From Deltaproteobacteria bacterium (GTDB lineage: Bacteria; BMS3Abin14), in contig JAADHJ010000048.1 of assembly GCA_013151915.1 (NCBI GenBank), positions 1 to 20,434 of the forward strand: DNA of 20,434 bases, written 5' to 3'. The translations under genes and the position numbers were made by a program. Positions within the stretch are counted from its first letter, which is position 1, and every line of letters begins with the position of its first letter. Of the stretch, positions 1,629 through 18,650 are shown one piece after another. The notes under the pieces are model-generated. The model was not told where the DNA came from, did not search any database, and saw nothing but the letters and a program-made list of their open reading frames with translations.

Positions 1629-3028
1629 ATAATGCGGAAATTTTCCACCAGGGTACAGCGCCGCTGCCGTGTATAAGTGCGCGCCGAGGTTAACCCCTCA
1701 CCTGTCGGCCCGGCGATGGTGAAGGCGGTGTGGCCTTCGCCACCAAGACCAAGCCCGGCATAGGAGGGACCGTTCTTGACAAAAAGCGTGGTCTGAATGG
1801 CCCGGGCGAAGGCTGTCATGTTGTCCACATTGGTCGAGTGCATTATGGCCGTGTGCCGGTTGCCCTGTTCCACCTCTACGGCAAAATTAATTCCTTCCTG
1901 GACATTCGCCACTCGCACGATGGGCATGACGGGCATCATCTGCTCAATCCAGACAAGGGGGTGATCCTTACCGGCCTCGAATATGGCCAGCCGATACTCT
2001 TCCCCCAGTTCTATGCCCACCTCTTTGAGGATTACCTGGACATTTTTCCCGATAAAGGCGGGGTTGATCCTTCCCTCTTTGGTAACCACCAACTCTGTGA
2101 CCTTTTCCGCCTCGTCAGGTGTCAGGAAGTAGGCCTTGCCGGTTTCCTGCATGAACTTGATCAGGCAATCGACCACTTCGTCTACAGCGAGAACCTCTTT
2201 TTCACAGGTGCAGAAGATATTATTGTTGATGCTCGCTCCATCGACGATAGATTTGGCCGCATTTCGTATGTTGGCAGTTTCGTCCACCAGGACAGGCGGA
2301 TTTCCGGCGCCGGCCCCGATAGCTTTTTTACCCGAACGCAAGACCGCATTCACCGCCGCCTTGCCGCCTGTGGCCACCAGCATGTTGACCTTCGGATGTT
2401 TCATGATCTCCTTGGCCGTTTCCAAGGTAGGATGGCTGACGGAAGAGATCAGGCCGACAGGCCCTCCAACATCGACGATGGCCTGATGGAGCAGCCGAAT
2501 CATACCTGTGCTGGTCTCCCTGGCGCTGGGGTGTGGGTTGAAAACCACGGCATTTCCAGCGGCTATCATGCTGATGGAATTATGAATTACGGTGCCGGTG
2601 GGATTTGTGATGGGCGTCAGGGAACCGATAACTCCTACCGGGGCGTACTCCAGAAGAGTCAGGCCGTCGTCGCCGCTTTTGGCAACAGGTTGAATGTCCT
2701 CCGTACCGGGCGTTTTTGTGGAACAGAGAATGTTTTCCTTGACCTTATCCTCGAAACGGCCCAGCTTCGTTTCCCTTACCGCTATAGCGGACATCTTCTC
2801 ATTGTTATCAAGAGACGTTTTTCTCATGGCGGCGATCATCTTGTCCCGCTGTGCGAGGGTCATGGAAATCAACTTTTTTTGTGCCTGGACAGCGCCATTG
2901 ACGGCTTCCTCGACTGTCCGGTAAATACCATCACCATCGGGTTCGGCAACCGCAGGATTCTCCTCGCTCACGAGATTTTCCAGCACTTTCTGGATGACGG
3001 TGGTGACTAAATCCTGGTTGACATTCAT
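1625..3028 (-). CDS. pduP: CoA-acylating aldehyde dehydrogenase (PduP/EutE family) with N-terminal encapsulation-peptide-like helix
   Basis: ALDH-superfamily protein whose N-terminus (MNVNQDLVTTVIQKVLENLV) is followed by an acidic linker, as in PduP. The likely start is M30 of the track ORF, preceded by AAGGAGGAG. The upstream track extension starts with GTG and overlaps the neighbouring gene. This is the last gene of the minus-strand operon. Confidence 0.85.
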   Translation of the reverse strand: MNVNQDLVTTVIQKVLENLVSEENPAVAEPDGDGIYRTVEEAVNGAVQAQKKLISMTLAQRDKMIAAMRKTSLDNNEKMSAIAVRETKLGRFEDKVKENILCSTKTPGTEDIQPVAKSGDDGLTLLEYAPVGVIGSLTPITNPTGTVIHNSISMIAAGNAVVFNPHPSARETSTGMIRLLHQAIVDVGGPVGLISSVSHPTLETAKEIMKHPKVNMLVATGGKAAVNAVLRSGKKAIGAGAGNPPVLVDETANIRNAAKSIVDGASINNNIFCTCEKEVLAVDEVVDCLIKFMQETGKAYFLTPDEAEKVTELVVTKEGRINPAFIGKNVQVILKEVGIELGEEYRLAIFEAGKDHPLVWIEQMMPVMPIVRVANVQEGINFAVEVEQGNRHTAIMHSTNVDNMTAFARAIQTTLFVKNGPSYAGLGLGGEGHTAFTIAGPTGEGLTSARTYTRQRRCTLVENFRII

Positions 3029-3086
3029 TTTACTCCTCCTTGTTCGCGCTTCATCATCAAGTTTCGTCCGTAATATCTTTTTAAAG

Positions 3087-3668
3087 TCAGTTGCCGCAGG
3101 CTGCCAGAAAAACACCGCCGATCAGAATCTGCAGTTCCCGCCGATCCAGCGGCAAACCTTCCTTTTCAAGAGCAAGAGCCAAAGATTCCTCCAGATCATG
3201 GATCCATCCTGTATCCCGAAGGCCGGGCGTCAGAACCGATCTGAAATTTTCGGACCAGCGTTCCATCTCGACGAAAGCTTGAGTAACGGGTTCCGCGACC
3301 CGCATATCCTGTTCCACGGTTCCGCCGCTAATGCCGATGGCCCCCACAACTTCCCCATCGAACCAGAGAGGAAAACCGCCGCCGAACAGAATGATCCTCC
3401 CACCGTGCGTGTTCTGAATCCCGGAAAGTACACCGTCTGACCGGGCCAACCTGCCAAGCTCATCCGTTGGCATTCGAAGGGAAGCCGCAGTGAAAGCCTT
3501 GGAACGCGCTATCTCGGAACTGGCTGGAAGCGCCCCCTTCATACGGGCGAAAAATTGGAGGGAGCCCTCCTCATCCGCCAGGGCTATGGCCATGGGAACT
3601 CCCATATCCCGAGCGGCCGCTTCGGCAACAGCGCAAAGGATCCGGGCTATCGAATAGGGAAGCTTCAT
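3087..3668 (-). CDS. DUF336 / GlcG-like (PduO C-terminal-domain-like) heme-binding protein, stand-alone
   Basis: The motif GGGFPLWFDGEVVGAIGISGGTVEQDMRVA matches the GlcG/HbpS/PduO C-domain signature. It carries about 55 extra C-terminal residues of unknown nature. Confidence 0.75.
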   Translation of the reverse strand: MKLPYSIARILCAVAEAAARDMGVPMAIALADEEGSLQFFARMKGALPASSEIARSKAFTAASLRMPTDELGRLARSDGVLSGIQNTHGGRIILFGGGFPLWFDGEVVGAIGISGGTVEQDMRVAEPVTQAFVEMERWSENFRSVLTPGLRDTGWIHDLEESLALALEKEGLPLDRRELQILIGGVFLAACGN

Positions 3669-4389: not shown

Positions 4390-4659
4390 TTACTGAACGT
4401 CAATTTCATCAATAATCCCAATGATCGTTGCGTCCACGGGACACCCATCATCGCCTACCGCCTGCCGGGCACCACTCCCCTGAACAACAAAGACTCTTTC
4501 CCCCACACCGGCTCCCACAGCATCGATAGCAACCAGCGTCCCACCCTGGGGTTCCTCTGTCCTGGGATCCAGCGGCTGGATGACCTGGATCTTGCTGCCA
4601 ACCAGATTTTCATGCTTGCGTGTGGCTACGACTGTCCCAATGACGCGGGCGATTATCAT
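4390..4659 (-). CDS. pduN: BMC vertex pentamer protein (PduN/EutN/CcmL family, BMC-P)
   Basis: 89 aa with the MIIARVIGTVVATRKHENL N-terminus typical of EutN/PduN. AGGAGG ribosome-binding site upstream. Confidence 0.9.
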   Translation of the reverse strand: MIIARVIGTVVATRKHENLVGSKIQVIQPLDPRTEEPQGGTLVAIDAVGAGVGERVFVVQGSGARQAVGDDGCPVDATIIGIIDEIDVQ

Positions 4660-4683: not shown

Positions 4684-5490
4684 TCAGAATTCCTCATTAT
4701 CAGCCATCAGTATCCCATACCGGGCGGCAAGATCCTGAGCCAAAGGCGTGAAGCGCCATTGCGGCTGGACCATGACTGCAGCACCCAGACGTTGGGCGTG
4801 GTTGATGTCAGCCGCAGTAACCAGCGGACCCGCCGGCCTGAAGACCCTTCCATGTGTATCCGGGACGCCGGCAGTCCCTTCTTCTTGAAGATTTTCCCTG
4901 CTCAGAACGGTGTTCACTGTGTCTCGCAACCTGCCTACATCGGTCAACCGGCAACCGTAGGAAACCAGAGTGTCGAGGATATTGTCCATGGCATCCCGCA
5001 GGGCCTTCGATCCTCTGTGGAAGCCCAGTTCCTTCCGCCCATAGGCCGTGGGATCGACTCCATTTCGAGCCACGATCACCGGTTTGCCCATAAAAAGGCC
5101 GTGGAGAATACAGTTCGTTGCCGTGTTGTCGGCAATGAGCATCCTGATCTTGGCAGCAGTGTTGACGCTCAGCAAAGGCACGATCACCGCCCGGACCTGC
5201 TTGAGACATCCGAGCCAGTTCGCAGTGGAAACCCGGCCCTGATGGGGAAACCCGGCCAGCCCGTCGTGTATGACCGGTGCGTACAGCTGTTCGGCAGACG
5301 TAGTGAAGACCATCCTCACCTCATATCCGTCGAGGATAAGCCGGCGAAGCTGGTTCACAACCTCGCCCATTCCGACGGTAGCTCCCGAAAAAACCGCCAG
5401 CACAATTCCCTTACTGCCATCGGCGCCTACGATCGCGGCCACTTTTCCGACAACCTCATTGACGATATTCTGTATGATGCGCCCATCCAT
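4684..5490 (-). CDS. BMC-associated protein: PduM-like N-terminal helix + flavoprotein-fold (HFCD/PF02441-like) core + PduM-like C-terminal motif
   Basis: The N-terminus MDGRIIQNIVNEVVGKV is an amphipathic helix resembling encapsulation peptides and the PduM N-terminus. The middle resembles the flavoprotein (Dfp/CoaC-like) family: LAVFSGATVGMGEVVNQLRRL...VRMVFT and VIVPLLSVNTAAKIRMLIADN...PVIVARN. The C-terminus has a TPLAQDLAARYGI motif reminiscent of PduM. Functional assignment is tentative. Confidence 0.5.
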   Translation of the reverse strand: MDGRIIQNIVNEVVGKVAAIVGADGSKGIVLAVFSGATVGMGEVVNQLRRLILDGYEVRMVFTTSAEQLYAPVIHDGLAGFPHQGRVSTANWLGCLKQVRAVIVPLLSVNTAAKIRMLIADNTATNCILHGLFMGKPVIVARNGVDPTAYGRKELGFHRGSKALRDAMDNILDTLVSYGCRLTDVGRLRDTVNTVLSRENLQEEGTAGVPDTHGRVFRPAGPLVTAADINHAQRLGAAVMVQPQWRFTPLAQDLAARYGILMADNEEF

Positions 5491-5499
5491 GATAAGAAC

Positions 5500-6390
5500 C
5501 TAGGCCATCTTCCCACTTGACCGCATTGACATGGAGGACACCTGTTCATCGAAGCAGGTCAGGGCGATTCCAAGAGGTGTCACCAGCAGTGGATTACAGG
5601 GCTGTACAACCTCCAGGCCCGTCTGGTCCTGCATCACCTGGGCGATACCTGGAAAGCAGCTGGTGCCCCCCACCAGATAGATCGTCTCAATCGAGGGAAA
5701 CCCTGTTAAGTGGCGCTTTACAATGGAACCCATTTTCTCGAAAACCGGTCGGACAAGGTGGATGATCTCCATCTGCCGGGTGGTATCGCGTTTGAGTTTC
5801 TCCGCCAGGTGGGAGTCTATTTTAAAGTTGCCCGCAAGGACCAGATCCACGTGGATGCCGCCCGTCGGTTCATCGGCTGAATATATAACCTCTCCACCCT
5901 CCAGGATGGAGATCCCCGTCGTTCCCCCACCGACATCAACCACGGCGCCATCCATGATTTCCAAAGCCCGTGAGGCTGCGCTTGGTTCATCCATCATGCC
6001 GACCACTTCCAGCCCGGCCGCCTCCAGAATATTGGAAAATGCCCTGGCATTCGGCCCGGAGGTACCGGGCGGGTAGGCGACCGCGGCAGACCGAATGGGA
6101 TAGCCGCCTTCCTGAAGGTCCTTCACCTGCCGGCGCAGGATCGCAACAGCTCCCAGGTAATCGAACACCAGCCCGTCCCGGACACTTGAATGGCTGCGGG
6201 TGAGCGCTCCAGCCACCGGATTTCTTTCGGCATCCACCACCGCCGTCACGATGTATGCTGTGCCAAGATCAACGCCTGCGGACAGGGGTCCATCGACTCC
6301 CCGCTTACCGTTCAGGTCCAGAGACAATGCGAAGGCATTTATCCTTCCATTTGCCGTTTCGTTGACATGGTTTGACAGGTTCCGGTTCAC
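5500..6390 (-). CDS. eutJ: EutJ-like actin/Hsp70-fold ATPase (putative chaperone)
   Basis: GVDLGTAYIV, VVDVGGGTTGISIL and EPTGGIHVDLVLAGN match EutJ. A GTG start overlaps the stop of the upstream gene (GTGA), suggesting translational coupling. Confidence 0.85.
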   Translation of the reverse strand: MNRNLSNHVNETANGRINAFALSLDLNGKRGVDGPLSAGVDLGTAYIVTAVVDAERNPVAGALTRSHSSVRDGLVFDYLGAVAILRRQVKDLQEGGYPIRSAAVAYPPGTSGPNARAFSNILEAAGLEVVGMMDEPSAASRALEIMDGAVVDVGGGTTGISILEGGEVIYSADEPTGGIHVDLVLAGNFKIDSHLAEKLKRDTTRQMEIIHLVRPVFEKMGSIVKRHLTGFPSIETIYLVGGTSCFPGIAQVMQDQTGLEVVQPCNPLLVTPLGIALTCFDEQVSSMSMRSSGKMA

Positions 6391-7007
6391 ACTTCTTTTC
6401 CTGTGAGGCGCTGCAAACTGGTTTCCGCGGCACTGGTAGCCCGTTCAACATCAGACTGTTTTCCACCGAGGTATAGGCGACCCACCGCACCGTAGGTCCT
6501 GCAATCCACAAGGGTGATGCGTGAGTTTTTTTCCGCCTCGTTGGCCGCGAGTGTAATGTAGGCCGCGGGTTGAACTTCCAGGATGTAAAGATCCTGCCCC
6601 GGAAGCAGCATCGAGCTGAGGCGTGAAACGTTGACCATCTGGGCGTGATAGGGGTTGACCTTGTGGATCACCTGAGAACTGAGGATCTTCGGTTTGATCC
6701 GGTCCTCGATCTTCAGTCCAAGTGTCTTCAGAACCGCTTGACCGGCGTGCTTCACCTCCTCCTGGGTCTGGGCGTGAAATTCCAGAACACCAAAGTGTCT
6801 TTCCACCACCATCATTCCAGGCTGGACGTTGGCCGATTTGAGGGCCGCGTCGGTCACATCGTTTATCTTGACCCCTGGAGATATCTCCACCAGGATTGCA
6901 GCCATCCCCGGAACAGGAATATAACCCCGGGCATTGGCCCCCATATAGGCGGCAAACTGGGGCTGTAATCGATCCAGGTACACGTATGAACGTAGTTCCA
7001 CTGTCAT
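6387..7007 (-). CDS. BMC-T shell protein (tandem permuted BMC domains, PduB/EutL-like, short form)
   Basis: Two BMC-like repeats (DAALKSANVQ..., AANEAEKNSRITLV...GRLYLGGKQSDVERATSAA) in 206 aa. The distinctive N-terminus ELRSYVYLDRLQPQFAAYMG suggests a permuted order like PduB/EutL. Confidence 0.75.
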   Translation of the reverse strand: MTVELRSYVYLDRLQPQFAAYMGANARGYIPVPGMAAILVEISPGVKINDVTDAALKSANVQPGMMVVERHFGVLEFHAQTQEEVKHAGQAVLKTLGLKIEDRIKPKILSSQVIHKVNPYHAQMVNVSRLSSMLLPGQDLYILEVQPAAYITLAANEAEKNSRITLVDCRTYGAVGRLYLGGKQSDVERATSAAETSLQRLTGKEV

Positions 7008-7555
7008 TTTTCTCTCCTTGCCGAACTATCGCCCGGCTTTCCCCTGGTCCTTTTTCCCGCAGCTCCACTCTTGCGGCCTGAAGTCTTACGGCCTGTTTTT
7101 CTTGGAGTGCTTTTTTTCCCGGCTCCTGTGGAATCCGGATCAGGTTTTTCTTTAGCAGCAGTCACGGCAACCTCGATCTCCATGGAAGCCGATTCCGCTT
7201 CGGGTTCCACGGCCGGTTCGTCTGAACTCTTCTCAGAGGGCTCAGGCTCTTCCTGCACCTTTTCGAGCTCATCCGGAGCAGTGGGCGCGGACGGTTTGAT
7301 TGGAATCTGATCGTCCGGCCGGGGGATCACGTGACTGGCAGTGAGAGTACCGATCTTTTCAGCCGCCGCGGTTCCCGCAGCCACCGCGGCCTGCACTGCT
7401 CCAACGTCACCGAGAAACTTGACCGTAACCAGCCCCTCCAGTGTTATTTCGTATCCGAGGAAAACCACATCGGCTGACTTCGTGGCCGCATCCGCCGCTT
7501 CAATGGCGGCTGTGTATCCCATGGTTTCGATAAGACCAAGGCTTCGTTTTTTCAT
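7004..7555 (-). CDS. BMC-H shell protein (PduA/EutM-like) with ~95-aa disordered acidic-then-basic C-terminal tail
   Basis: Canonical BMC domain (LGLIETMGYTAAIEAADAATKSADVVFLGYE...GDVGAVQAAV...HVIPRP). It is followed by a Pro/Glu-rich acidic stretch and an Arg/Lys/Gly-rich terminus (KKSTPRKTGRKTSGRKSGAAGKRTRGKPG). Confidence 0.85.
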   Translation of the reverse strand: MKKRSLGLIETMGYTAAIEAADAATKSADVVFLGYEITLEGLVTVKFLGDVGAVQAAVAAGTAAAEKIGTLTASHVIPRPDDQIPIKPSAPTAPDELEKVQEEPEPSEKSSDEPAVEPEAESASMEIEVAVTAAKEKPDPDSTGAGKKSTPRKTGRKTSGRKSGAAGKRTRGKPGDSSARREK

Positions 7556-7608: not shown

Positions 7609-8109
7609 TTACGCGTACATCCCGCCTGATGGACTTTTTGCGAGGCCATCAATTTTAGCTATGGCTTCTCTGACCAGCTGTTCCAACTGCTCCTGGGAAA
7701 ACTTGATGGGACAAAAAGCATCCGGCTCGCCATCAGATCCGTCGGCGAGGATCATGGGATTGCCCTTCACCAGACGCGCTGCGTTGGCCCCGAGGTTCCT
7801 CAAGGGTGTTTCTTCCAGGGGTCCGGGACCAAGGATGAAAAGCGGTGTTTTCTCCGGCAGATCCCGGTGGTGTAAAACCGCGAATCCCCGATCTTCGTCA
7901 ACACCGACCCCCACGCCGACCGGTGACCTGTCGGCAGCTTGTTTGGCCATGTTTTCAGGGGGACCCTGTTTCGCCTCGAAGATCTTTGCGGGAACACCCT
8001 CTTCTTCCAGGCCCAGCAGGATTCTTTCCACTATCCTGGAGCCGGAAAGCCCCGTCCCATAGATATAGACGGCGGGTTTGTCTTCAGGTTGTGCGAACCT
8101 CGGATTCAT
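7609..8109 (-). CDS. pduH: Diol/glycerol dehydratase reactivase small (beta) subunit (PduH/DhaG/GdrB-like) with C-terminal extension
   Basis: LGLEEEGVP, SPVGVGVGV and LRNLGANAARLVK match DhaG/PduH. An extra ~45 C-terminal residues contain an amphipathic helix (SQEQLEQLVREAIAKIDGL). Confidence 0.8.
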   Translation of the reverse strand: MNPRFAQPEDKPAVYIYGTGLSGSRIVERILLGLEEEGVPAKIFEAKQGPPENMAKQAADRSPVGVGVGVDEDRGFAVLHHRDLPEKTPLFILGPGPLEETPLRNLGANAARLVKGNPMILADGSDGEPDAFCPIKFSQEQLEQLVREAIAKIDGLAKSPSGGMYA

Positions 8110-8120
8110 GGCCGATTCTC

Positions 8121-9944
8121 TCAGTTTTCCCCGTTCACGTACGCCAAAACCAGTCCTGTCGCAACAGCATTGCGTGGACCCTCCACACCCCTGACATTGG
8201 CTCTGCCGGTCACCACTCCACTTTCCACAAGGACATCGGAGATCATTTTTGGGATCTCAAAATCAAGCGCCGATCCTCCAACAAGAGCGACAAAGCTGAT
8301 GAGCCGGATATTGCCGGCAGGAGCGATCCTCTCAAGGGCACGCAACGCATTTCGAACGAAAACCCTTTTTTTCGCATTCTGACGAACCTGAACGATCTTC
8401 GATAAAGGTTCGCTGATCTCCAGGGGAATGGGCCCTTCACCGCCAAGAACCACAACTCGTCCAAAGAGCCTGGGTTCGAGGGGTTCATGAAAAAACTGAA
8501 CCGAACCATCCTCATGACGCATATGAAAAAGGGTTTCCACCTTGGCCAGGGGATTAACCTTGATCCTTTCAGCCAGATCACGGTCGTCCAGCCCGAGTTC
8601 CGTATCGATGAGCAAGGTGACCATGTCTCCCGCACCGGCCAGATGGATGCTTTTGATCTCACCGGCCTCGCTGATCAGGGAAGCATCCGTCGATCCCCCT
8701 CCCAGGTCCAGAATGGCCATAGGAGGTTTGAGACCCGGCGTAGTGAGCGCGCCGCGTATAGCCATCTCAGCTTCTACACCCCCGATGTTGGTAGAAACCG
8801 AGATCTCCTCTTCCAGTTTCCTGGCAAGACGCTGCATGGGGAGTTTATGGGTTTTTACCATCGCTGCCAGTCCTACGGCATTACCCATGGAATACTCTCC
8901 CGCCAGGCTTCCTAAAACCCTTTGGGGTTTCAAGGTATCTACAGCGAGTATGTCCTGAACCTGGATGGCGCTCACAGGCTGATCCGTCAGGTCGGCCATG
9001 ACTGTCCGGACATGTTCGAACATTCCTCCCACATGGGTCCCAGCTTCGGCCTGAATTTCCAGCAGCGGAGAGACGAGAGCCACCTTTTTCATAATAGCTT
9101 CAGCCCCCTCCTCCACCTTCACCACTTCCTTCCGGTTTTCCCCCATCAATACGATGCTTCCAGCCGGGATTCGGCGTTCCTCGATGTCTCCCCTGGGTGT
9201 TTTAATCACCACGGCGCTTCGTGTGCCCATGAGAGCCCTGGCTATGGGGACCACCTGTCTGGTCTCATCGGGATCCAGATCAAAGAGCGTGGCAATATCG
9301 TAGGGGTTGGACAGCTTCTCGATCGTCCTGCCCTGCGAGGCGACCTCAACAGCCGCAGGCATGTCCAGGGGAACCCTGTCAACATGTCTTACCTCGTCCA
9401 CAATGGGGATAGACCTGTGCAGCCGGTTATTGATGAGCACCGCGTCGTCCTTCTGGACGATGGCACCAGCCACAATGAGGTCCCTCGAAATTGCCCTGGT
9501 CAACCGCTCGGCCGCTTCTTTGAAGCCGAATTCACCGGGAATGATCACGATCCAGGGTCCAGACACCTGGGTCGTTTCCAGTTGGTCGAGGGTGATGGTC
9601 GTCCCGATGCCAAGACCTAATCCTCCGGGGGTCCCGGGATTGTGACCGATCATGGCTGATTCGGTGATGACGGTTTCTGTGATCGTCTCCATGGCTACAT
9701 CACCGATGACAGGCGCAGCCTCGTTAAGAAGGATCAGGCTGAGGTCATTTCGCTCAAGTCCCGCCAACGCAAGGCTCTTATCCAGAGCATCGATGACCCC
9801 CAAAGCATTGCGTATGGTCCCCTTGATCCCTATGGTTCTTACCAGGGAACTGGAAAGTATGTCCGCTTTGCCCGCTGTGGCCACTCTCCCTATGGCAACC
9901 TCAGTCGAGTTGTTTCCAACGTCTACCCCGGCGATAAAAGTCAT
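8121..9944 (-). CDS. pduG: Diol/glycerol dehydratase reactivase large (alpha) subunit (PduG/DhaF/GdrA-like)
   Basis: 607 aa. An N-terminal ATPase motif (MTFIAGVDVGNNSTEVA) and a second actin-like motif (ILDLGGGSTDASLI) are typical of reactivase alpha subunits. Confidence 0.9.
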   Translation of the reverse strand: MTFIAGVDVGNNSTEVAIGRVATAGKADILSSSLVRTIGIKGTIRNALGVIDALDKSLALAGLERNDLSLILLNEAAPVIGDVAMETITETVITESAMIGHNPGTPGGLGLGIGTTITLDQLETTQVSGPWIVIIPGEFGFKEAAERLTRAISRDLIVAGAIVQKDDAVLINNRLHRSIPIVDEVRHVDRVPLDMPAAVEVASQGRTIEKLSNPYDIATLFDLDPDETRQVVPIARALMGTRSAVVIKTPRGDIEERRIPAGSIVLMGENRKEVVKVEEGAEAIMKKVALVSPLLEIQAEAGTHVGGMFEHVRTVMADLTDQPVSAIQVQDILAVDTLKPQRVLGSLAGEYSMGNAVGLAAMVKTHKLPMQRLARKLEEEISVSTNIGGVEAEMAIRGALTTPGLKPPMAILDLGGGSTDASLISEAGEIKSIHLAGAGDMVTLLIDTELGLDDRDLAERIKVNPLAKVETLFHMRHEDGSVQFFHEPLEPRLFGRVVVLGGEGPIPLEISEPLSKIVQVRQNAKKRVFVRNALRALERIAPAGNIRLISFVALVGGSALDFEIPKMISDVLVESGVVTGRANVRGVEGPRNAVATGLVLAYVNGEN

Positions 9945-9960
9945 ACACCGAAAACCCCGA

Positions 9961-10530
9961 CTATTTCTTTAAACGTCCGCGTCCCTCATACACCACCGCT
10001 GCTTCGTGGACCAGAGCGGCACAGACACGGGCGTCGTATTTGGATTCCAACTCTCCGGCGATGTCCAGGAGCTCCTGTTTGGTGGACCGGTAAGGTCTCA
10101 TAGCATTGTATATCTCCAGGACTCGTTCATCCGGGATTCTGGTCAGTTCCGCGGCTCTGCGCAGGTTTGCGGCCAGGCTTGGACGTCCCGCACTTTCAGC
10201 GATCTGGGCCTGATATTCCAGGGTTTCAGGGCGAATCTTAATGTCTTCGAAAGACAAGCTTCCTTCTACGACTTTGTCGAGAGTTATATCTTCGAGTTTC
10301 AGACCGCTGGCGGACTGGACCAAATCGGGCCGATTGTTGGCAAGAGGATAATCCCTTTTCGCGTCAAGCCCCTCTTTCGAGCCGGCGGGCTGCCGAGCGC
10401 CCCCGCCCGATTCGCCCTGTATCGCGGACATCACCTGCTTGACCACCTCCGCTACGCGATCGGGGGAAATATCAAGGCCTTTGGCCTTGATCATGTCTTC
10501 CACCTTTTTGGACATATAATCGTCAGCCAT
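9961..10530 (-). CDS. pduE: B12-dependent diol/glycerol dehydratase small (gamma) subunit with ~50-aa N-terminal extension
   Basis: The core (DYPLA...DITLDKV...LEYQAQIAE...RRAAELTRIPDERVLEIYNAMRPYRS) matches PduE/DhaB3. The N-terminal extension has an amphipathic helix (SPDRVAEVVKQVMSAI) followed by a Gly-rich linker. Confidence 0.9.
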   Translation of the reverse strand: MADDYMSKKVEDMIKAKGLDISPDRVAEVVKQVMSAIQGESGGGARQPAGSKEGLDAKRDYPLANNRPDLVQSASGLKLEDITLDKVVEGSLSFEDIKIRPETLEYQAQIAESAGRPSLAANLRRAAELTRIPDERVLEIYNAMRPYRSTKQELLDIAGELESKYDARVCAALVHEAAVVYEGRGRLKK

Positions 10531-10594: not shown

Positions 10595-11233
10595 CTAGAT
10601 GGAAAGCTCAACCGTTTTCCTGTTCTGATCCACCGCCTGGACTTCTTTGTTGTGAAGCAGAGCCGCCAGCCCCTGGTAGCGGGGTCTGGCCATGGGATCG
10701 TTGCGAACAGGAACAGGATTGGGGCTCTCACCTTTTGCATACTTGGCCGCATTGCGTCCGATGGCTCTGAACGTCTCCAGTTCCACCAGAGGTGACTGGG
10801 AGAACAGCTCCAGGTTCTGCAGAGGAGCCAGGTCTTTCTGGTGGATCACTGTGGTTCCCCGGGAAAGAATGCCTATGCCGATTCCCGATCCACTGAGTTT
10901 AGCAGCCTCGTGACCAATGAATGCCACGTCAGCGGTCCTGTAAACCCTGACAAGTCTGGGATGAAGGCCTTCCTCTTCAATTCCGGCCATCAGTTCCCGC
11001 AGGACCTCCCTGTGGGGAAGCCCGATAATCGTCTTGGTCATTGTCCTGCCGAATGCCTGCGGGAGCCCGATAACGACCTCGCTACGATCAGTCCCCGGTT
11101 CAGCTTCTCCATCTTCGGTCATATCCATCGGTGGGACATCCACATCAGCGTTAAATCCGGAATCCTCTTCTCCCTGCATCTGCCCGAGGACCTCAAGGAT
11201 AATCTGTTTCACCATCTCTTCAGAAATTTTCAT
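10595..11233 (-). CDS. pduD: B12-dependent diol/glycerol dehydratase medium (beta) subunit with N-terminal encapsulation peptide
   Basis: The core (GIEEEGLHPRLVRV...LSGSGIGIGI.SRGTTVIHQKDL.PLQNLELFSQSPL) matches PduD/DhaB2. The N-terminus MKISEEMVKQIILEVLGQM resembles the PduD encapsulation peptide and is followed by an acidic linker. Confidence 0.9.
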   Translation of the reverse strand: MKISEEMVKQIILEVLGQMQGEEDSGFNADVDVPPMDMTEDGEAEPGTDRSEVVIGLPQAFGRTMTKTIIGLPHREVLRELMAGIEEEGLHPRLVRVYRTADVAFIGHEAAKLSGSGIGIGILSRGTTVIHQKDLAPLQNLELFSQSPLVELETFRAIGRNAAKYAKGESPNPVPVRNDPMARPRYQGLAALLHNKEVQAVDQNRKTVELSI

Positions 11234-11259: not shown

Positions 11260-12927
11260 CTATACGTCCTCAGGACTGATTGCCTGGGGGATGTTCTTGA
11301 GTATCTCCCACCTTTCCCCATCCAGACGATACCCTGTCCCGGGCCCCTCGTAATCGTTGGGATCATTCACGGCACTCAGAACAACGAAATCATCATCGAA
11401 TATGGCGGAGGTATGGAGATAATCCCCGGAAACTTTCTGTTTGAGCATGTTCAGGACTCCTTCCGCCACGTCCTTGAAACCATGTTTTGCAAGAGCACGA
11501 ACCACATCCAGCCCGTTTCCTCCCCGTTTCATGAATTCGTCGATGCTGCGCAGATCCTCCGGTACGTTCCGATCGGGCACATCTTTGCTGCCATGGGCAT
11601 AAGTAACCGCTTCCACCTCTGCATCGGTAATCGGCGGCAATCGCAGTTCCTCAAAGATAGCCTGGAGCGCTCGGGCGGCTTTGTTCCGAATAGCGATAAT
11701 ATCCTCCTCATTCACCGGACGCAGGCCGCCATCGACCTGGAAATCCCTCTGAAGAACCAGATAATCATCGTAATCGTCACAATCGTGCGTGGATCCGGCG
11801 AACATGTTGTCGTAGTTGGGAACAGTGCTGTATCCCGAGAAGATAAAATCTGTGCCGGGCAGAAATTGCATGAGCATTCGTGCCGTATTGCGGATAGGAG
11901 AATGAGTGAAGGTCTGATCATTGCCGGACGCCACCTCCATGTCCATCAGGACGGTCGCGATGTTCTCAGCCAGAACCGCTCGAATCCCGGAAGGCACAGC
12001 CCCCGGAACTCCTATGCAGCTGATCGAACCGTTCTGAAGACCCTGTACACCTGCGCCCTTGGTGATCATGACACAGCGGATTTCGAGGTAGAGCATGGAT
12101 TTGCGTTCCGCATAACCCATCTGCACCTCTGAGCCCGTCCCGGAGGTGAACCTCATCTTCACTCCCCTAGAGGCGTAGGCCGATGCCAGAAAGGCCTTTG
12201 ACCAGGGGGTATCATCCCCATCAACGAAAACCTGCTCGGTGCCGTAAACGGAAACCGTTTCCGCGTATGCGGTCAGCCCCCGCATCCCCATGGTGAGTTC
12301 CAGCGCCTCTTCCACAGCGCACTGCGTCAGCACACCGGGACGACCCGTCTGGGAACCTACAAGTATGGAGAGCGCATTCATGGGAGCGTAGCGTCCCACA
12401 CCCACAGTGGTTTCCAGTTCCGTAAATCCGCGAAAAGCCCCTTCCGCCGCATCAGCTGCCAGAAGAGCGGGGGTATCTTTGAGGTTGGTGACATGGCCCT
12501 GGTTTGACGGTGTTCGCCTCGCCCGGAGCTTCTGCATGGTCATCATGAGCTCGACCACATTCATTACCTTGAGGATATCGAGGATCTTGGCCGGAGTCAT
12601 TCCGACAGCCAGGCGAACGATTTCGGATCTCGGTACATGGATGTCCACCAGCATACGGGCGAACTCCACCGAATCGATGGCCATGGCTTCAGCGGCCACT
12701 TCTGTGTCAATGCAGTGGTCGGCAATCCAGGTGTCGATCATATCGAATTCCCGGCGGGGTTTCCCGTCCAGTTCCACTACTTTTCCACTTTCAATCCTGA
12801 TCCCAGGTTCAGGGTCGTAGGGGCTATCCATAGCGACCAGACCTACTTCGACCCATTCTTTAATAAAGCCGTCCTTATTAACCGAACGATCGGCCAATAC
12901 CTGGAAGCGTTTCTGTCTTTTGCTCAT
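11260..12927 (-). CDS. pduC: B12-dependent diol/glycerol dehydratase large (alpha) subunit
   Basis: 555 aa. MSKRQKRFQVLADRSVNKDGFIKEW and many blocks (e.g. SGTGSEVQMGYAE..., TKGAGVQGLQNGSISCIG) are typical of PduC/DhaB1/GldA-alpha. Confidence 0.95.
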   Translation of the reverse strand: MSKRQKRFQVLADRSVNKDGFIKEWVEVGLVAMDSPYDPEPGIRIESGKVVELDGKPRREFDMIDTWIADHCIDTEVAAEAMAIDSVEFARMLVDIHVPRSEIVRLAVGMTPAKILDILKVMNVVELMMTMQKLRARRTPSNQGHVTNLKDTPALLAADAAEGAFRGFTELETTVGVGRYAPMNALSILVGSQTGRPGVLTQCAVEEALELTMGMRGLTAYAETVSVYGTEQVFVDGDDTPWSKAFLASAYASRGVKMRFTSGTGSEVQMGYAERKSMLYLEIRCVMITKGAGVQGLQNGSISCIGVPGAVPSGIRAVLAENIATVLMDMEVASGNDQTFTHSPIRNTARMLMQFLPGTDFIFSGYSTVPNYDNMFAGSTHDCDDYDDYLVLQRDFQVDGGLRPVNEEDIIAIRNKAARALQAIFEELRLPPITDAEVEAVTYAHGSKDVPDRNVPEDLRSIDEFMKRGGNGLDVVRALAKHGFKDVAEGVLNMLKQKVSGDYLHTSAIFDDDFVVLSAVNDPNDYEGPGTGYRLDGERWEILKNIPQAISPEDV

Positions 12928-12957: not shown

Positions 12958-13767
12958 TCAGATATAAGGCTCGGTCACAGGTTTGGGTACATCACCCCAT
13001 GCGCCCAACAACTTGATGCCAACCTCGCGGCCGGAAATCACAGCCTGGCGTACCGCACCGGAATCACCGCTGACCCAGATCATGACTTCGTTGGTCAAAC
13101 TGGTGCCTTTCGCCGGCGATGCATACCCTACGACCTCCACGTCCGCAGCCTTGACCGCGGTGTCGATCATAAGCACCCCAATAACCGCAGGGGCCCCGAG
13201 GATCAACCCGAACGCTTTTCCTTCGGGGGTATTGAACACCTTATGCAGTCCCCTGCTGGCCCTGGCCGTATACTGAAGCTCCAGATGCCCCTGATCGTTG
13301 GTATAAACGTCACCGAAATATTTGGGCAGCGTCTCAAGGGTGACCTCAACAGCGCGCCGGGCATCCGAAACGTCCTCGGCGGCAAACACGATCAGGTTTC
13401 CATGGCCCGCTCCACCTTTCGTATCCCTGGGCATTTCAATGGATACGATTTCAGTGTTGGTAGCCTTGACGGCATCGTCGGCAGCCATAATCTGCGGTCC
13501 GGCGCCGATACGACCACCGATAACCCCGATGGACCGATATTTATTATCGATTCCCATCAGATCCTGGATGATGGGATCCAGGTTTGCGATCACGATACCC
13601 TGGGTTTCCCCCAGGCCGACCCCGACGAACTCCGTCACCTGGACCAGGTCCTCCGAAGGCACCGGGTTGCTGGAACGCTGTTCCGGCGCGACTTTTTCAT
13701 CGGACTGGGCAGAGCCGACCCTGCTCATCACTTCCGCTAAAACTTTGTTAATTAATTCCTCTTGCAT
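12958..13767 (-). CDS. pduB: PduB-type BMC-T shell protein (tandem permuted BMC domains)
   Basis: Near-colinear match to PduB: RSIGVIGGRIGAGPQIMAADDAVKATNTEIVSIEMPRDTKGGAGHG...GDVY.N..GH.ELQYTARAS...VISGDSGAVRQAV. Confidence 0.9.
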   Translation of the reverse strand: MQEELINKVLAEVMSRVGSAQSDEKVAPEQRSSNPVPSEDLVQVTEFVGVGLGETQGIVIANLDPIIQDLMGIDNKYRSIGVIGGRIGAGPQIMAADDAVKATNTEIVSIEMPRDTKGGAGHGNLIVFAAEDVSDARRAVEVTLETLPKYFGDVYTNDQGHLELQYTARASRGLHKVFNTPEGKAFGLILGAPAVIGVLMIDTAVKAADVEVVGYASPAKGTSLTNEVMIWVSGDSGAVRQAVISGREVGIKLLGAWGDVPKPVTEPYI

Positions 13768-13820: not shown

Positions 13821-14108
13821 CTAACTGGACTCCACAGACTTGGGCAGGATCTTTTCCACATCCTGATGAGGCCTCGGAATGACGTGAACGGACACAACTT
13901 CACCGACCTTCTGGGCGGCGGCGGCACCCGCGTCGGTTGCGGCCTTGACGGCCCCGACGTCACCGCGGACCATGGTGGTCACAAGCCCGGCCCCGATCTT
14001 GACGTTGCCCACCAACACTACATTGGCTGCCTTGACCATGGCATCCGCGGCTTCAATGTTGGGGACCAGCCCCCTTGTTTCGATCATTCCCAACGCTTCC
14101 TTAATCAT
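13821..14108 (-). CDS. pduA: BMC-H shell protein (PduA/PduJ-like)
   Basis: [34 protein letters not shown]...GDVGAVKAA...HVIPRP. The likely start is M21 of the track ORF, preceded by a GGAGA ribosome-binding site. Confidence 0.9.
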
Positions 14109-14153
14109 GATACTTTCTCCTATCACCCTGCCGGGTACGGTAAACAACAGCTT

Positions 14154-14180
14154 CGGGGGGCGCTCCAACAGCAGCCCCCG
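14154..14180 (-). other. GC hairpin in gldA-to-shell-gene spacer (possible partial terminator/attenuator or processing site)
   Basis: CGGGGG...CCCCCG 6-bp GC stem with a ~15-nt loop. On the minus strand it is followed by AAGCUGUUGUUUA, which is only weakly U-rich. It lies in the 143-nt gap between gldA and the first shell gene. Confidence 0.3.
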
Positions 14181-16958: not shown

Positions 16959-18650
16959 TCACACTCCAGGCAGAACAAAGGAAAAAATGCAGCCCTCATT
17001 TTTCCTGGAGTCCCATTGGGTTGTGGGAGATTTCAACCAGATGCAGCCGTCATGGGCTTCCACCATCTGTTTGCAGACTGCAAGGCCGATGCCTATGCTC
17101 CTTCTCTCCGGCAGATTCATGGTTCTAATGGTGAAAAATTTGTCAAAAACAGAGTCCTGGTATTTTTCCGGGATACCCACCCCACTGTCGATGATCTCAT
17201 TAAGGATGTAAAATCTCCCATCCACCAGAGCCTCTCTGTAATGGGACGGAACACCGTTTTTCACACTTTTGAGATCAGAACCGGAGACCATGGTGGTGGA
17301 CACCTCTATCACACCCCCCTCTGGACTGTATTTGATAGCGTTGTCAAGGAGGTTGACAAAAATACGTGTCAATCGCACGCTGTCTCCAGCCATTTTCAGC
17401 GGTTTTGGTGGTACCTGATAGCGAATGGTGATCCCCTTGTCGTCCAGATGAAACTTCAGCTGCTGAATGCTGTTATGAACGATATCCCTGATATCAAAAA
17501 TGGTCTTGAAAAGATTGAACTGCCCGCTTTCACTTCGGTAGTTATCCAGCAGGTCGTTTGCAAGCCCATAGATCTGCTTCGTGGTACCGATGGCCATGGT
17601 GAGGATCTCCGATAGTTGTTCGTTAAAGGCAAGATCGGAATCGGCCAGGAGTTGAAGGGCTTTTTCAACCGAAAGGACAGGGTTCCTCATATCGTGAGTC
17701 ACCATGGCAACCAGGTCTTCTTTCATTCGCTGGACCCTTTTTTCCTCCGAGATATCACGAACCACCGCGACATATCCCGCATTTCTTTCCTTTTCAGGAT
17801 CGACGATCCCGGAGAGGGACACATGGACGGGAAATTCGGTCTGGTCCGATTTCTTCGCCAGCAATTCTCCCAACCAGCTCTTCTCCCGACAATGATTTGA
17901 GGCTTTATCCAGATAAGTATCCACAGATTCCTGACCCGCCAGCAGTGACAGAATCGACCTGCCGGCCAACTGGCCGGCATCCCATTGAAAAATATGCTCG
18001 CTGGCGCTGTTGACCATGGTGATGTTGTGTTCGTTGTCCGTTGAAATAATGCTGTCGGAAACGCTGTTGATGAGAACATGCAGGTATTCCTGAGAACTTT
18101 TGAAAAGCCGATACTTTCCAAGCACCAACTCGCTCACCGTTTTCGTGATAAGCGCCATCAGGTTGACGATGTCCAACAGGCGGGAGCTACTCATGATCGG
18201 GATCTGCGCCAACTCGCGCATATATCCTGAAACATCCGAAATCCCTATGGAAAGAGCCCTCTCACGGGCCACATCCTCTTCCAAAGGTTCTTCCAGCACC
18301 TGTCCGCACAAAACGGTCGCAAGGTGATATCCATCAACAACTACGGGAGCCGCACAGTCGATCAGCCCCGCGTTGAGACAACTATAGATGACCGGCGCCC
18401 TTTTTCGGGCCGATTCCTGTCCCCCGTACCAGTCGCTCTGTCGGCACTTCCTTATGCCTTCTTCGGTGCTCCTGCAATACTTCTCACAAAGCCGCGTAAA
18501 ATTGTGCGGCTTTGTTATGGGCGTCCCATCCACATGGACGATAATGGACGCCACTCCCGTCGCCTTCGTAAAAACAGCGAGAATCTCCTCCAGATCGAAT
18601 TCACCGATGAGGTTCAGCAGGTTACTCAGATACTCCATGGAAGTACCCAT
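16959..18650 (-). CDS. Cytoplasmic sensor histidine kinase with N-terminal PocR ligand-binding domain, PAS domain, HisKA and HATPase_c
   Basis: The N-terminus (FTKATGVASIIVHVDGTPITKPHNFTRLCEKYCRSTEEGIRKCRQSD) resembles a PocR sensory domain. A PAS-like middle region is followed by an H-box (VAMVTHDMRNPV) and N/G boxes (LLDNAIKYSP, DSGVGIP, GIGLAVCK). No hydrophobic transmembrane segment is present. Confidence 0.85.
   Translation of the reverse strand: MGTSMEYLSNLLNLIGEFDLEEILAVFTKATGVASIIVHVDGTPITKPHNFTRLCEKYCRSTEEGIRKCRQSDWYGGQESARKRAPVIYSCLNAGLIDCAAPVVVDGYHLATVLCGQVLEEPLEEDVARERALSIGISDVSGYMRELAQIPIMSSSRLLDIVNLMALITKTVSELVLGKYRLFKSSQEYLHVLINSVSDSIISTDNEHNITMVNSASEHIFQWDAGQLAGRSILSLLAGQESVDTYLDKASNHCREKSWLGELLAKKSDQTEFPVHVSLSGIVDPEKERNAGYVAVVRDISEEKRVQRMKEDLVAMVTHDMRNPVLSVEKALQLLADSDLAFNEQLSEILTMAIGTTKQIYGLANDLLDNYRSESGQFNLFKTIFDIRDIVHNSIQQLKFHLDDKGITIRYQVPPKPLKMAGDSVRLTRIFVNLLDNAIKYSPEGGVIEVSTTMVSGSDLKSVKNGVPSHYREALVDGRFYILNEIIDSGVGIPEKYQDSVFDKFFTIRTMNLPERRSIGIGLAVCKQMVEAHDGCIWLKSPTTQWDSRKNEGCIFSFVLPGV

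What the first reader, a model, noticed from the sequence alone, without database searches (positions are those of the whole stretch)
7609..10530. Encapsulation-peptide-like helices at unusual positions: N-terminus of the dehydratase small subunit and C-terminus of the reactivase small subunit
The gamma subunit carries a ~50-aa N-terminal extension absent from Klebsiella-type DhaB3. It has a predicted amphipathic helix (SPDRVAEVVKQVMSAI) and a Gly-rich linker. This is in addition to the classic encapsulation peptide on the beta subunit (MKISEEMVKQIILEVLGQM). The reactivase small subunit (PduH/DhaG-like core) has ~45 extra C-terminal residues containing SQEQLEQLVREAIAKIDGL, an encapsulation-peptide-like amphipathic helix. 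This suggests the reactivase is actively targeted into the lumen by a C-terminal signal. That would be an uncommon arrangement.
Basis: partly seen in the sequence, partly recalled or inferred. Interest (0 to 1): 0.6.

Follow-up and report, generated by a model that had tools for sequence, protein, structure and literature searches.

The report
Targeting tail on B12-enzyme repair protein
In this propanediol-microcompartment operon, the small subunit of the enzyme that repairs the B12-dependent dehydratase ends in a flexible linker and a short amphipathic helix that looks like the address tags used to load enzymes into the compartment; the similar helix on the dehydratase small subunit is already well known.

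Summary
Both extensions are real. The window is a PDU1D-type propanediol-utilisation microcompartment (BMC) operon on the minus strand.

**PduE (gamma subunit).** It has a 57-residue N-terminal extension. This is homologous to the known PduE/PddC extension of BMC-associated diol dehydratases. In Salmonella that extension does not work as a signal sequence, so "unusual position" is wrong here. The only new detail is a second, clade-specific helix (residues 2-17).

**PduH (reactivase small subunit).** It has a 47-residue C-terminal tail: a disordered linker (120-137) followed by an amphipathic helix (138-157).
- The tail is conserved in 61 of 74 shell-linked loci, from Desulfobacterota, Acidobacteriota, some Firmicutes and other phyla.
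- It is missing from all 8 related dehydratase operons that lack shell genes. Where PduD and PduE could be read in those operons, they lack their extensions too.
- A profile built from PduH tail helices was scanned over a Yersinia pdu locus. Its top five hits were the N-termini of PduM, PduP, PduD, PduL and PduB, whose Salmonella counterparts carry the validated signal sequences.

The tail is therefore most likely an encapsulation peptide that gives PduGH its own address tag. Salmonella PduGH has none and depends on PduCDE. I found no report of this tail in the searchable literature. Function is untested. I rate it a new variant of a known kind, of moderate interest.

The parts
7609..8109 (-). 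pduH: diol dehydratase reactivase small subunit, 166 aa plus stop codon
   Evidence: Pfam PF02288, residues 11-119, E=2.9e-27. DdrB 2d0o_B E=9e-14. The AlphaFold2 core matches DdrB/GdrB with TM-score 0.85.
7699..7752 (-). PduH linker, residues 120-137 (ILADGSDGEPDAFCPIKF)
   Evidence: pLDDT is below 50 for residues 124-134. Length and sequence vary among homologues; the whole stretch after the NAARLVK anchor is 38-81 aa in tail-bearing loci.
7639..7698 (-). PduH C-terminal amphipathic EP-like helix, residues 138-157 (SQEQLEQLVREAIAKIDGLA)
   Evidence: Translation. AlphaFold2 helix 139-157. Hydrophobic moment 0.57. Conserved motif in homologues. A profile of this helix finds validated Pdu signal sequences.
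7612..7638 (-). PduH residues 158-166 after the helix (KSPSGGMYA)
   Evidence: pLDDT is below 50 for residues 162-166. Not conserved: the closest relatives end 4 residues after the motif.
8121..9944 (-). pduG: reactivase large subunit, 607 aa, no terminal extension
   Evidence: Pfam DDR and DDR_swiveling domains cover residues 93-602.
9961..10530 (-). pduE: diol dehydratase small (gamma) subunit, 189 aa
   Evidence: Pfam PF02287, residues 58-188. 1dio_G E=3e-46. RBS before the ATG.
10480..10527 (-). PduE N-terminal helix 1, residues 2-17 (ADDYMSKKVEDMIKAK); clade-specific addition
   Evidence: AlphaFold2 helix 2-17, pLDDT about 67. Conserved as 'EQLSKxVERMAQxKG' in the long-form PduE of Desulfobacterota; absent from short-form and enterobacterial PduE.
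10417..10464 (-). PduE N-terminal helix 2, residues 23-38 (PDRVAEVVKQVMSAIQ); the known PduE EP-like helix
   Evidence: Aligns to K. oxytoca gamma residues 7-23. AlphaFold2 helix 23-38. Hydrophobic moment 0.64. Conserved as 'ISPELIAEAVKRVM'.
10360..10416 (-). PduE Gly/Ser-rich linker, residues 39-57
   Evidence: pLDDT is below 50 for residues 38-51. Variable in homologues.
11177..11233 (-). PduD N-terminal encapsulation peptide, residues 1-19 (MKISEEMVKQIILEVLGQM); lies outside the finding's coordinates
   Evidence: Translation. Absent from the non-BMC PduD in L070. Recognised by the PduH-tail profile.
2966..3019 (-). PduP aldehyde dehydrogenase N-terminal EP (NQDLVTTVIQKVLENLVS; residues 4-21 counted from the likely start Met at 3028)
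   Evidence: Best non-self hit of the PduH-tail profile in the window, 10.7 bits.
6387..7007 (-). CcmP/CsoS1D-type BMC-T(dp) shell protein (locus-type marker)
   Evidence: PDB CcmP 5lsr_A E=8e-64. Sutter 2021 (PMC8217296) reports BMC-Tdp only in PDU1D among PDU loci.
16959..18650 (-). PocR-domain histidine kinase (locus-type marker)
   Evidence: Pfam PocR, PAS, HisKA and HATPase domains. Axen 2014 (PMC4207490) gives a PocR-kinase two-component system as the PDU1D hallmark.

Best explanation
**Setting.** The window encodes a PDU1D-type propanediol-utilisation microcompartment.

**PduH.** The reactivase small subunit PduH carries a C-terminal encapsulation peptide. An 18-residue disordered linker tethers a roughly 19-residue amphipathic helix whose hydrophobic face is L142, L145, V146, A149, I150, I153 and L156.
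- Inferred mechanism: this helix binds the same partners as the N-terminal signal sequences of PduD and PduP in the same operon. Those partners are the condensing enzyme core and/or grooves on the luminal face of the shell.
- The PduG2H2 reactivase would therefore be recruited into the compartment on its own tag, two tags per heterotetramer. In Salmonella it instead rides in on PduCDE.
- The reactivation cycle releases PduH from PduG when the dehydratase beta subunit docks. This is established for K. oxytoca DdrAB and summarised in PMC4315436. A tag on PduH would then also keep the released subunit within the core. This last step is speculation.

**PduE.** The N-terminal extension is the lineage's version of the known PduE extension, with an extra upstream helix. 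It is tied to the BMC, but by analogy with Salmonella it probably does not work as a self-sufficient address tag.

**Shown versus inferred.**
- Shown: the anatomy, the conservation, the restriction to shell-linked loci, and the sequence-class identity with validated signals.
- Inferred: binding and targeting.
For: 1. **EP architecture.** The extension lies beyond the solved DdrB/GdrB core. It has a disordered linker and a confident helix with a high hydrophobic moment.
2. **Conservation.**
   - 107 of 121 protein homologues have tails of at least 30 aa, and 96 of those carry the motif.
   - 61 of 74 shell-linked genome loci have long tails, across Desulfobacterota, Acidobacteriota, Solirubrobacterales, Rhodospirillaceae, Verrucomicrobiia and some Bacillales and Clostridia.
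   - The helix is at least as conserved as the core: 0 of 20 and 3 of 20 nonsynonymous codons, against 13 of 120 and 33 of 120.
3. **Natural controls.**
   - All 8 related operons without shell genes have a tail-less PduH. These are L015 and L070 and the loci of P0111, P0079, P0077, P0064, P0024 and P0092.
   - L070 has PduC 83% and PduG 71% identical to the window's proteins, and it nests inside the tail-bearing clade. It also lacks the PduD and PduE extensions.
   - Fisher test p=5.7e-6.
4. **Sequence class.**
   - A position-specific scoring matrix (PSSM) built from 90 PduH tail helices ranks the N-termini of PduP, PduD, PduE and the flavoprotein among its top 7 of 5166 windows in the window's own proteins.
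   - In a Yersinia pdu locus whose PduH has no tail, its top 5 of 5229 windows are the N-termini of PduM, PduP, PduD, PduL and PduB. Their Salmonella counterparts are the validated signal sequences (PMC12108088).
5. **Gap it would fill.** Salmonella PduG reaches the core without a signal sequence and needs PduCDE/PduD (PMC9132943, PMC12108088).
Against: - There is no experimental evidence for any PduH tail.
- The Salmonella PduE extension looks like an EP yet fails as a signal (PMC12108088), so resemblance alone is not proof.
- The window's own helix is less hydrophobic than the family consensus. It has A149 and A151 where most homologues have V, I or T. It scores only 8.0 bits when close relatives are left out of the profile.
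- Thirteen shell-linked loci manage without the tail, including enterobacteria, Vagococcus, some Clostridia and Desulfatibacillum.
- The loci are phylogenetically related, so the Fisher test overstates independence.
- Some non-BMC control contigs are short (4.8-9 kb).
Confidence: 0.7

Rival explanations
1. The PduH tail is a BMC-associated but non-targeting appendage, like the Salmonella PduE extension. It would tune solubility, activity or packing of the reactivase inside the compartment, but would not be sufficient or necessary to bring PduGH in.
For: The Salmonella PduE extension has the same look and fails as a signal (PMC12108088). The window's helix has a weaker hydrophobic face than the family consensus. 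Thirteen shell-linked loci encapsulate, or at least encode, PduGH without a tail.
Against: In the AlphaFold2 model, the PduH helix is separated from the core by a very low-confidence linker whose length varies between homologues. The tail profile ranks the N-termini whose Salmonella counterparts are validated signals (PduM, PduP, PduD, PduL, PduB) above everything else, and does not rank enterobacterial PduE.
Confidence: 0.17
2. The tail is a functional part of the reactivase cycle. For example, it could clamp PduH to PduG or to PduCDE, or regulate the ADP/ATP-driven subunit swap. It would be unrelated to compartment loading.
For: PduH is the subunit that is released and rebound during reactivation (summarised in PMC4315436), so an extra contact element could matter.
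Against: Closely related reactivases in operons without shell genes lack the tail: their PduG is 71-75% identical to the window's. The solved DdrAB and GdrAB complexes work without it. The linker is not conserved in length or sequence.
Confidence: 0.1
3. The extensions are gene-calling artefacts or chance amphipathic stretches.
For: The loose hydrophobic pattern occurs in about 12% of random 45-residue windows.
Against: The tail is in frame, ends at a stop codon upstream of the next gene, and is conserved across phyla with purifying selection. The PduE start has a strong RBS, and its extension is conserved in 115 aligned homologues.
Confidence: 0.01

Closest known systems
N-terminal signal sequences (encapsulation peptides) of Salmonella/Citrobacter PduP, PduD, PduL, PduM and PduB
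   Same: Both are an amphipathic helix of about 18 residues with hydrophobic residues at i, i+3, i+4, i+7, i+8, joined to the enzyme by a flexible linker and absent from non-BMC homologues. The PduH-tail profile retrieves these five N-termini as its top hits in a Yersinia pdu locus.
   Different: The PduH helix is at the C-terminus, and it sits on the reactivase small subunit, a cargo not known to carry a signal. It is untested.
C-terminal encapsulation peptides of CcmN, class II aldolase, and the aldehyde dehydrogenases of EUT2/GRM-type BMCs (PMC4594438)
   Same: Both have a C-terminal linker-plus-helix architecture.
   Different: The host proteins and BMC types differ. Within PDU loci, the published EPs on enzymes are all N-terminal.
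PduE/PddC N-terminal extension of BMC-associated diol dehydratase gamma subunits (PMC4594438, PMC12108088)
   Same: The window's PduE helix 2 (residues 23-38) aligns to it directly. It is absent from non-BMC PduE of 137-140 aa.
   Different: The window and many Desulfobacterota add a second conserved helix upstream (residues 2-17), giving a 57-residue extension against about 36 residues in K. oxytoca.
Salmonella PduGH / K. oxytoca DdrAB reactivase
   Same: The large and small subunit cores are the same, and the small subunit has the same fold.
   Different: The model PduH/DdrB ends 5-16 residues after the NAARLVK motif and has no tag. Its encapsulation depends on PduCDE/PduD (PMC9132943, PMC12108088).

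Membership tests
BMC encapsulation peptide (applied to the PduH C-terminal tail) | Terminal extension absent from homologues not associated with a BMC | tested here: met
   All 8 operons without shell genes have a tail-less PduH. 61 of 74 shell-linked loci have a long tail. Fisher p=5.7e-6, with a caveat for phylogenetic non-independence.
BMC encapsulation peptide (applied to the PduH C-terminal tail) | Predicted amphipathic alpha-helix of about 15-20 residues | tested here: met
   AlphaFold2 helix 139-157, pLDDT 86 and 71 by block. Hydrophobic moment 0.57, 97th percentile.
BMC encapsulation peptide (applied to the PduH C-terminal tail) | Poorly conserved flexible linker between helix and enzyme core | tested here: met
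   pLDDT below 50 for residues 124-134. Linker length and composition vary widely among homologues.
BMC encapsulation peptide (applied to the PduH C-terminal tail) | Shares the common hydrophobic motif of validated Pdu signal sequences | tested here: met
   The tail-helix PSSM retrieves the N-termini of PduM, PduP, PduD, PduL and PduB as the top 5 of 5229 windows in Yersinia L065. It also retrieves the N-termini of PduP, PduD, PduE and the flavoprotein in the window.
BMC encapsulation peptide (applied to the PduH C-terminal tail) | Necessary and/or sufficient for cargo encapsulation | not testable with these tools
   This needs reporter fusions and BMC purification.
PduH/DdrB/GdrB reactivase small subunit | Dehydratase_MU-like fold, encoded next to the large reactivase subunit | tested here: met
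   PF02288. 2d0o_B E=9e-14. Foldseek TM-score 0.85 to 2d0p_B and 1nbw_B. pduG lies immediately upstream.
Known PduE N-terminal extension | Homologous to the N-terminal extension of BMC-type diol dehydratase gamma; absent from glycerol dehydratase and non-BMC gamma | tested here: met
   1dio_G residues 7-170 align to query residues 27-188, while 1iwp_G starts at query residue 59. Non-BMC PduE is 137-140 aa.
Known PduE N-terminal extension | Acts as an autonomous targeting signal | not testable with these tools
   Negative in Salmonella (PMC12108088). Unknown for this lineage and for the extra helix 1.
PDU1D locus type | pduCDE signature enzyme with shell genes, a PocR-domain histidine kinase two-component system, and a BMC-T(dp) shell protein | tested here: met
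   Pfam domains. CcmP-like BMC-Tdp E=8e-64. Criteria taken from PMC4207490 and PMC8217296.

The most novel reading that the evidence does not exclude
In PDU1D-type and related microcompartments, the B12-maintenance enzymes are loaded by their own C-terminal tags instead of by piggybacking. PduH would use a classical amphipathic EP. The HbpS-like protein (equivalent to the PduO C-terminal domain) would use a different tag: a conserved, very hydrophobic C-terminal motif (I/A)L(T/A)G(G/A)V(L/I)LAL(S/A), which is likewise missing from non-BMC operons. That motif would be a second, undescribed class of BMC targeting or anchoring signal.
Probability: 0.25. Interest if true: 0.65.

Novelty: new variant of a known kind. 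Interest (0 to 1): 0.45.

Why it matters
How the B12-recycling enzymes PduGHOS get into Pdu microcompartments is an acknowledged gap (PMC6873790). In Salmonella they carry no signal and depend on PduCDE (PMC9132943, PMC12108088).

A natural, conserved C-terminal tag on PduH would show that other lineages solved this problem with a dedicated address tag. Cultured carriers exist for testing, including Desulfogranum marinum and D. japonicum, Bacillus methanolicus and Neobacillus paridis.

It would also give engineers a C-terminal Pdu-type tag for cargo whose N-terminus must stay free.

Finally, the operons without shell genes lack the PduH tail and, where those genes could be read, the PduD and PduE extensions as well (all three in L070). 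This is a clean natural experiment on how enzymes are adapted to compartment life.

Tried and rejected
- **Literature.** Nine full-text searches and targeted reads covered PduH, PduGH or reactivase combined with encapsulation peptide, extension or amphipathic, and PDU1D. None mentioned a PduH extension. Kinney 2012 (PMC3366800) is not held, so prior mention there cannot be excluded.
- **Is the PduH tail related to the C-terminal region of its paralogue PduD?** I saw no similarity when reading the two sequences.
- **Is a 62-aa ORF overlapping the end of tail-less PduH in L081 a frameshifted tail?** No. Its sequence is unrelated.
- **Could the PduE extension be a mis-called start?** Rejected. 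A strong RBS sits before the first ATG, and residues 1-21 are conserved.
- **Fold searches.** They matched only the cores. No solved structure contains either extension.
- **Loose regex pattern.** It misses some true motifs (for example L003, L013 and L017, with Y or T in hydrophobic positions) and has a 12% background rate. Counts based on it are therefore approximate.
- **Frameshifted tails.** Four of the long-tail loci that lack the pattern (L028, L037, L044, L049) read as frameshifts, probably assembly errors.
- **Not attempted.** A tail-only search of the billion-sequence libraries, because an 18-residue helix cannot reach significance there.
Full report
**What is in the window.**
All relevant genes lie on the minus strand and form a propanediol-utilisation (pdu) microcompartment operon.
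- Regulators and alcohol dehydrogenase: PocR-domain histidine kinase (16959-18650), two response regulators, Fe-alcohol dehydrogenase.
- Shell and signature enzyme: BMC-H (13821-14168), PduB (12958-13767), PduC (11260-12927), PduD (10595-11233), PduE (9961-10530).
- Reactivase: PduG (8121-9944) and PduH (7609-8109).
- Further shell proteins: a BMC-H with a long charged tail (7004-7555), a CcmP-like BMC-T(dp) (6387-7007), EutN (4390-4659).
- Accessory enzymes: EutJ-like protein, a flavoprotein, PduO adenosyltransferase, an HbpS-like protein, and PduP aldehyde dehydrogenase.

A PocR-kinase two-component system and a BMC-T(dp) are the published hallmarks of the PDU1D locus type (PMC4207490, PMC8217296). 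The closest genome loci are uncultured Pseudomonadota/Desulfobacterota MAGs, at up to 88% PduH identity.

**Check of the observation.**
- **PduE core and extension.** The Pfam core is residues 58-188. K. pneumoniae glycerol dehydratase gamma aligns from query residue 59, so about 50 residues are extra relative to DhaB3.
- **PduE start.** The ATG at 10530 follows AAGGAAAGGAAATC.
- **PduE structure.** AlphaFold2 with 115 homologues predicts helices at 2-17 and 23-38 and a disordered linker at 38-51.
- **PduH core and tail.** The core ends at residue 119 by both Pfam and alignment to K. oxytoca DdrB, leaving 47 extra residues.
- **PduH structure.** AlphaFold2 with 121 homologues gives a confident core, a linker with pLDDT below 50 (124-134), and a helix at 139-157 with block pLDDT of 86 and 71.
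- **Amphipathicity.** Hydrophobic moments are 0.64 for the PduE helix and 0.57 for the PduH helix. These are the 98th and 97th percentiles of all 14-residue windows in the operon's proteins, in the range of the PduP signal (0.55).

**The PduE extension is the known one.**
- Aussignargues et al. surveyed 103 PduE sequences and described this N-terminal amphipathic extension in BMC-associated PduE (PMC4594438).
- A 2025 study showed that in Salmonella it cannot target cargo, and suggested it is part of the enzyme body (PMC12108088).
- The extension is therefore neither unusual nor safely called an encapsulation peptide.
- What is specific to this lineage is a second conserved helix upstream, with consensus EQLSKxVERMAQxKG followed by ISPELIAEAVKRVM. 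It occurs in the 183-190-residue 'long form' PduE of many Desulfobacterota and Solirubrobacterales. It is absent from the 172-180-residue form of Acidobacteriota and others, and from enterobacteria.

**The PduH tail is conserved and tied to the compartment.**
- **Protein homologues.** Of the 120 closest protein clusters plus the window, 107 have at least 30 residues after the invariant NAARLVK motif. Of those, 96 carry the spacing pattern h..hh..hh..h near the C-terminus. The consensus is SQDQLEELI(T/A)(L/R)VV(T/A)E(L/I)L.
- **Genome loci.** In 80 loci from the species-level genome collection, gene order is conserved as PduA-B-C-D-E-G-H-K-(BMC-T)-EutJ-flavoprotein-EutN-PduO-Hbp-PduP.
- **Shell-linked loci.** 61 of 74 scorable shell-linked loci have a long PduH tail.
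- **Tail-less shell-linked loci.** These 13 include Yersinia, Hafnia, Entomohabitans, Agarivorans, several Clostridia-type MAGs, two thermophile MAGs and Desulfatibacillum. The three Vagococcus loci lack the NAARLVK anchor and were left out of the 74; an approximate measure puts their tails at zero.
- **Tail outside the PDU1D clade.** The tail also occurs in Neobacillus paridis, Bacillus methanolicus and three Clostridia MAGs.
- **Purifying selection.** Codon comparison with the two nearest loci shows the helix is at least as constrained as the core: 0 of 20 and 3 of 20 nonsynonymous codons, against 13 of 120 and 33 of 120.

**Natural controls.**
The classical way to recognise an encapsulation peptide is that the extension is missing from homologues that are not compartment-associated. 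That test is met.
- **L070 and L015.** These two Deltaproteobacteria MAG loci have no shell gene within the fetched DNA, and their PduH ends 8 and 6 residues after the motif.
- **L070 detail.** Its PduC is 83% and its PduG 71% identical to the window's proteins. Its PduD (185 aa) lacks the N-terminal peptide, and its PduE (139 aa) starts MAQTKVDKNDYPL.
- **L070 position.** On a PduG neighbour-joining tree it nests inside the tail-bearing clade.
- **Six further controls.** Six more short-tail PduH proteins from the homologue list were traced to their contigs. All sit in pduC(D)-E-G-H-hbp operons with no BMC-domain gene on the contig. Where those genes are complete, PduE is 137-140 aa and the HbpS-like protein 135-141 aa.
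- **Statistics.** Long versus short tail against shell versus no shell gives 61/0 versus 13/8, Fisher p=5.7e-6. The loci are related, so this overstates independence.

**The tail helix belongs to the same sequence class as validated signal sequences.**
I built an 18-column position-specific scoring matrix (PSSM) from 90 distinct PduH tail helices.
- **Scan of the window.** Over all 5166 windows of the 20 proteins encoded in the window, the best non-self hits included PduP 4-21 (10.7 bits), PduD 4-21, PduE 22-39 and the flavoprotein N-terminus. Only two internal false positives ranked among them.
- **Scan of an independent locus.** Yersinia aleksiciae (L065) has a tail-less PduH. Its top five of 5229 windows were the N-termini of five proteins identified by Pfam as PduM, PduP, PduD, PduL and PduB. 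The Salmonella counterparts of these five carry the experimentally validated signal sequences (PMC12108088). Enterobacterial PduE did not rank.
- **Other enterobacteria.** Hafnia and Entomohabitans gave essentially the same lists.
- **Leave-out control.** With the window's eight closest relatives left out of the matrix, the window's helix still scores 8.0 bits. It is less hydrophobic than the family consensus.

**Mechanism proposed.**
- Shown: the anatomy of core, floppy linker and amphipathic helix; the restriction to shell-linked loci; and the identity of the hydrophobic motif with known signals.
- Inferred: the helix binds what other Pdu signals bind. Candidates are the enzyme core, which signals follow when shell and core are uncoupled (PMC12108088), and/or hydrophobic grooves between tessellated BMC-H hexamers (PMC11157265). 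That would recruit PduG2H2 into the lumen during assembly.
- Contrast with the model system: in Salmonella, PduG reaches the core without a signal, and its localisation collapses without PduCDE or the PduD body (PMC9132943, PMC12108088). This lineage appears to have replaced, or supplemented, that piggybacking with a dedicated tag.
- Speculative: the tag may sit on PduH rather than PduG because PduH is released when the dehydratase beta subunit docks (PMC4315436), and a tag would keep it in the core.

**Rival explanations.**
- **Non-targeting appendage.** The Salmonella PduE case shows that a look-alike can be non-functional, and 13 shell-linked loci lack the tail, so this remains possible (about 0.17).
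- **Role in the reactivase cycle.** This is disfavoured, because close non-BMC reactivases and the solved DdrAB and GdrAB complexes lack the tail and the linker is unconstrained (about 0.1).
- **Artefact or chance.** This is excluded by conservation and purifying selection.

**Comparison with what is known, and novelty.**
- C-terminal encapsulation peptides are known on CcmN, class II aldolases and some aldehyde dehydrogenases (PMC4594438).
- Within PDU systems, the described signals on enzymes are N-terminal, and none is on the reactivase.
- Nine full-text searches and reads of the main surveys (PMC4594438, PMC4207490, PMC8217296, PMC12108088, PMC9132943, PMC4315436) found no mention of a PduH extension. 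Kinney 2012 is not held, so earlier mention cannot be ruled out.
- I class the PduH tail as a new variant of a known kind, the PduE helix 2 as already known, and the PduE helix 1 as a minor lineage-specific addition.

**Verdict.**
- Interest is 0.45. A specialist would not be astonished. However, the tail addresses the open question of how B12-recycling enzymes are loaded, it is directly testable, and it offers a C-terminal Pdu-type tag.

Noticed in passing
window 3087-3668 (-); also L001-L056: The HbpS-like protein (equivalent to the PduO C-terminal domain, 193 aa, Pfam core 5-126) has a C-terminal extension of about 65 residues. It ends in a conserved, very hydrophobic motif, (I/A)L(T/A)G(G/A)V(L/I)LAL(S/A); in the window this reads LQILIGGVFLAACGN. 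The extension is present in nearly all BMC-T-type loci and absent from non-BMC operons (135-154 aa) and from enterobacterial and Firmicute loci. It is not a classical amphipathic EP, and its function is unknown.
   Followed up: partly
window 10480-10527 (-): There is a second conserved helix (residues 2-17) upstream of the known PduE helix, giving a helix-turn-helix N-terminal extension. It occurs in long-form PduE (183-190 aa) of many Desulfobacterota and Solirubrobacterales, but not in Acidobacteriota or enterobacteria.
   Followed up: partly
window 7004-7555 (-): The BMC-H shell protein at the PduK position carries a roughly 100-residue disordered tail. The tail is acidic and proline-rich first and strongly basic at the end (…GRKTSGRKSGAAGKRTRGKPGDSSARREK).
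   Followed up: no
window 4684-5490 (-): This 268-aa flavoprotein (PF02441, weak hit) starts with an EP-like helix (MDGRIIQNIVNEVVGKV). The PduH-tail profile recognises that helix. The protein has no sequence relative in the PDB, and it is conserved at this position in most related loci.
   Followed up: partly
window 6387-7007 (-) and 16959-18650 (-): A CcmP/CsoS1D-type double-stacking BMC-T (E=8e-64 to CcmP) and a PocR-domain histidine kinase with two response regulators mark the operon as PDU1D type.
   Followed up: yes
window 7639-7698 (-) compared with L001 and L002: The DNA encoding the PduH helix is more conserved at the codon level than the rest of the gene. Identical codons are 19 of 20 and 12 of 20 in the helix, against 88 of 120 and 38 of 120 in the core. 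Synonymous changes are therefore also scarce. This could be chance, recombination or an extra nucleotide-level constraint.
   Followed up: no
L082, L083, L086: Non-BMC dehydratase operons in metagenomes encode a fused large-plus-medium subunit (PduC-PduD, 741-742 aa), followed by short PduE, PduG, short PduH and a short HbpS-like protein.
   Followed up: no
window 1625-3115 (-) and 13821-14168 (-): The mechanical ORFs overcall two starts. PduP most likely starts at the Met at 3028 (MNVNQDLV…), which puts its EP at the N-terminus. The first BMC-H most likely starts at the Met of MIKEALGM, not at the upstream TTG.
   Followed up: no
L028, L037, L044, L049: In these MAG loci the PduH tails read as frameshifted, basic, low-complexity sequence instead of linker plus helix. 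This is probably assembly error, and it inflates the 'long tail without motif' class.
   Followed up: no
window 19347-20039 (-): A PEP-CTERM-anchored secreted protein is encoded beyond the histidine-kinase end of the operon, which fits an exopolysaccharide-producing environmental Gram-negative host.
   Followed up: no
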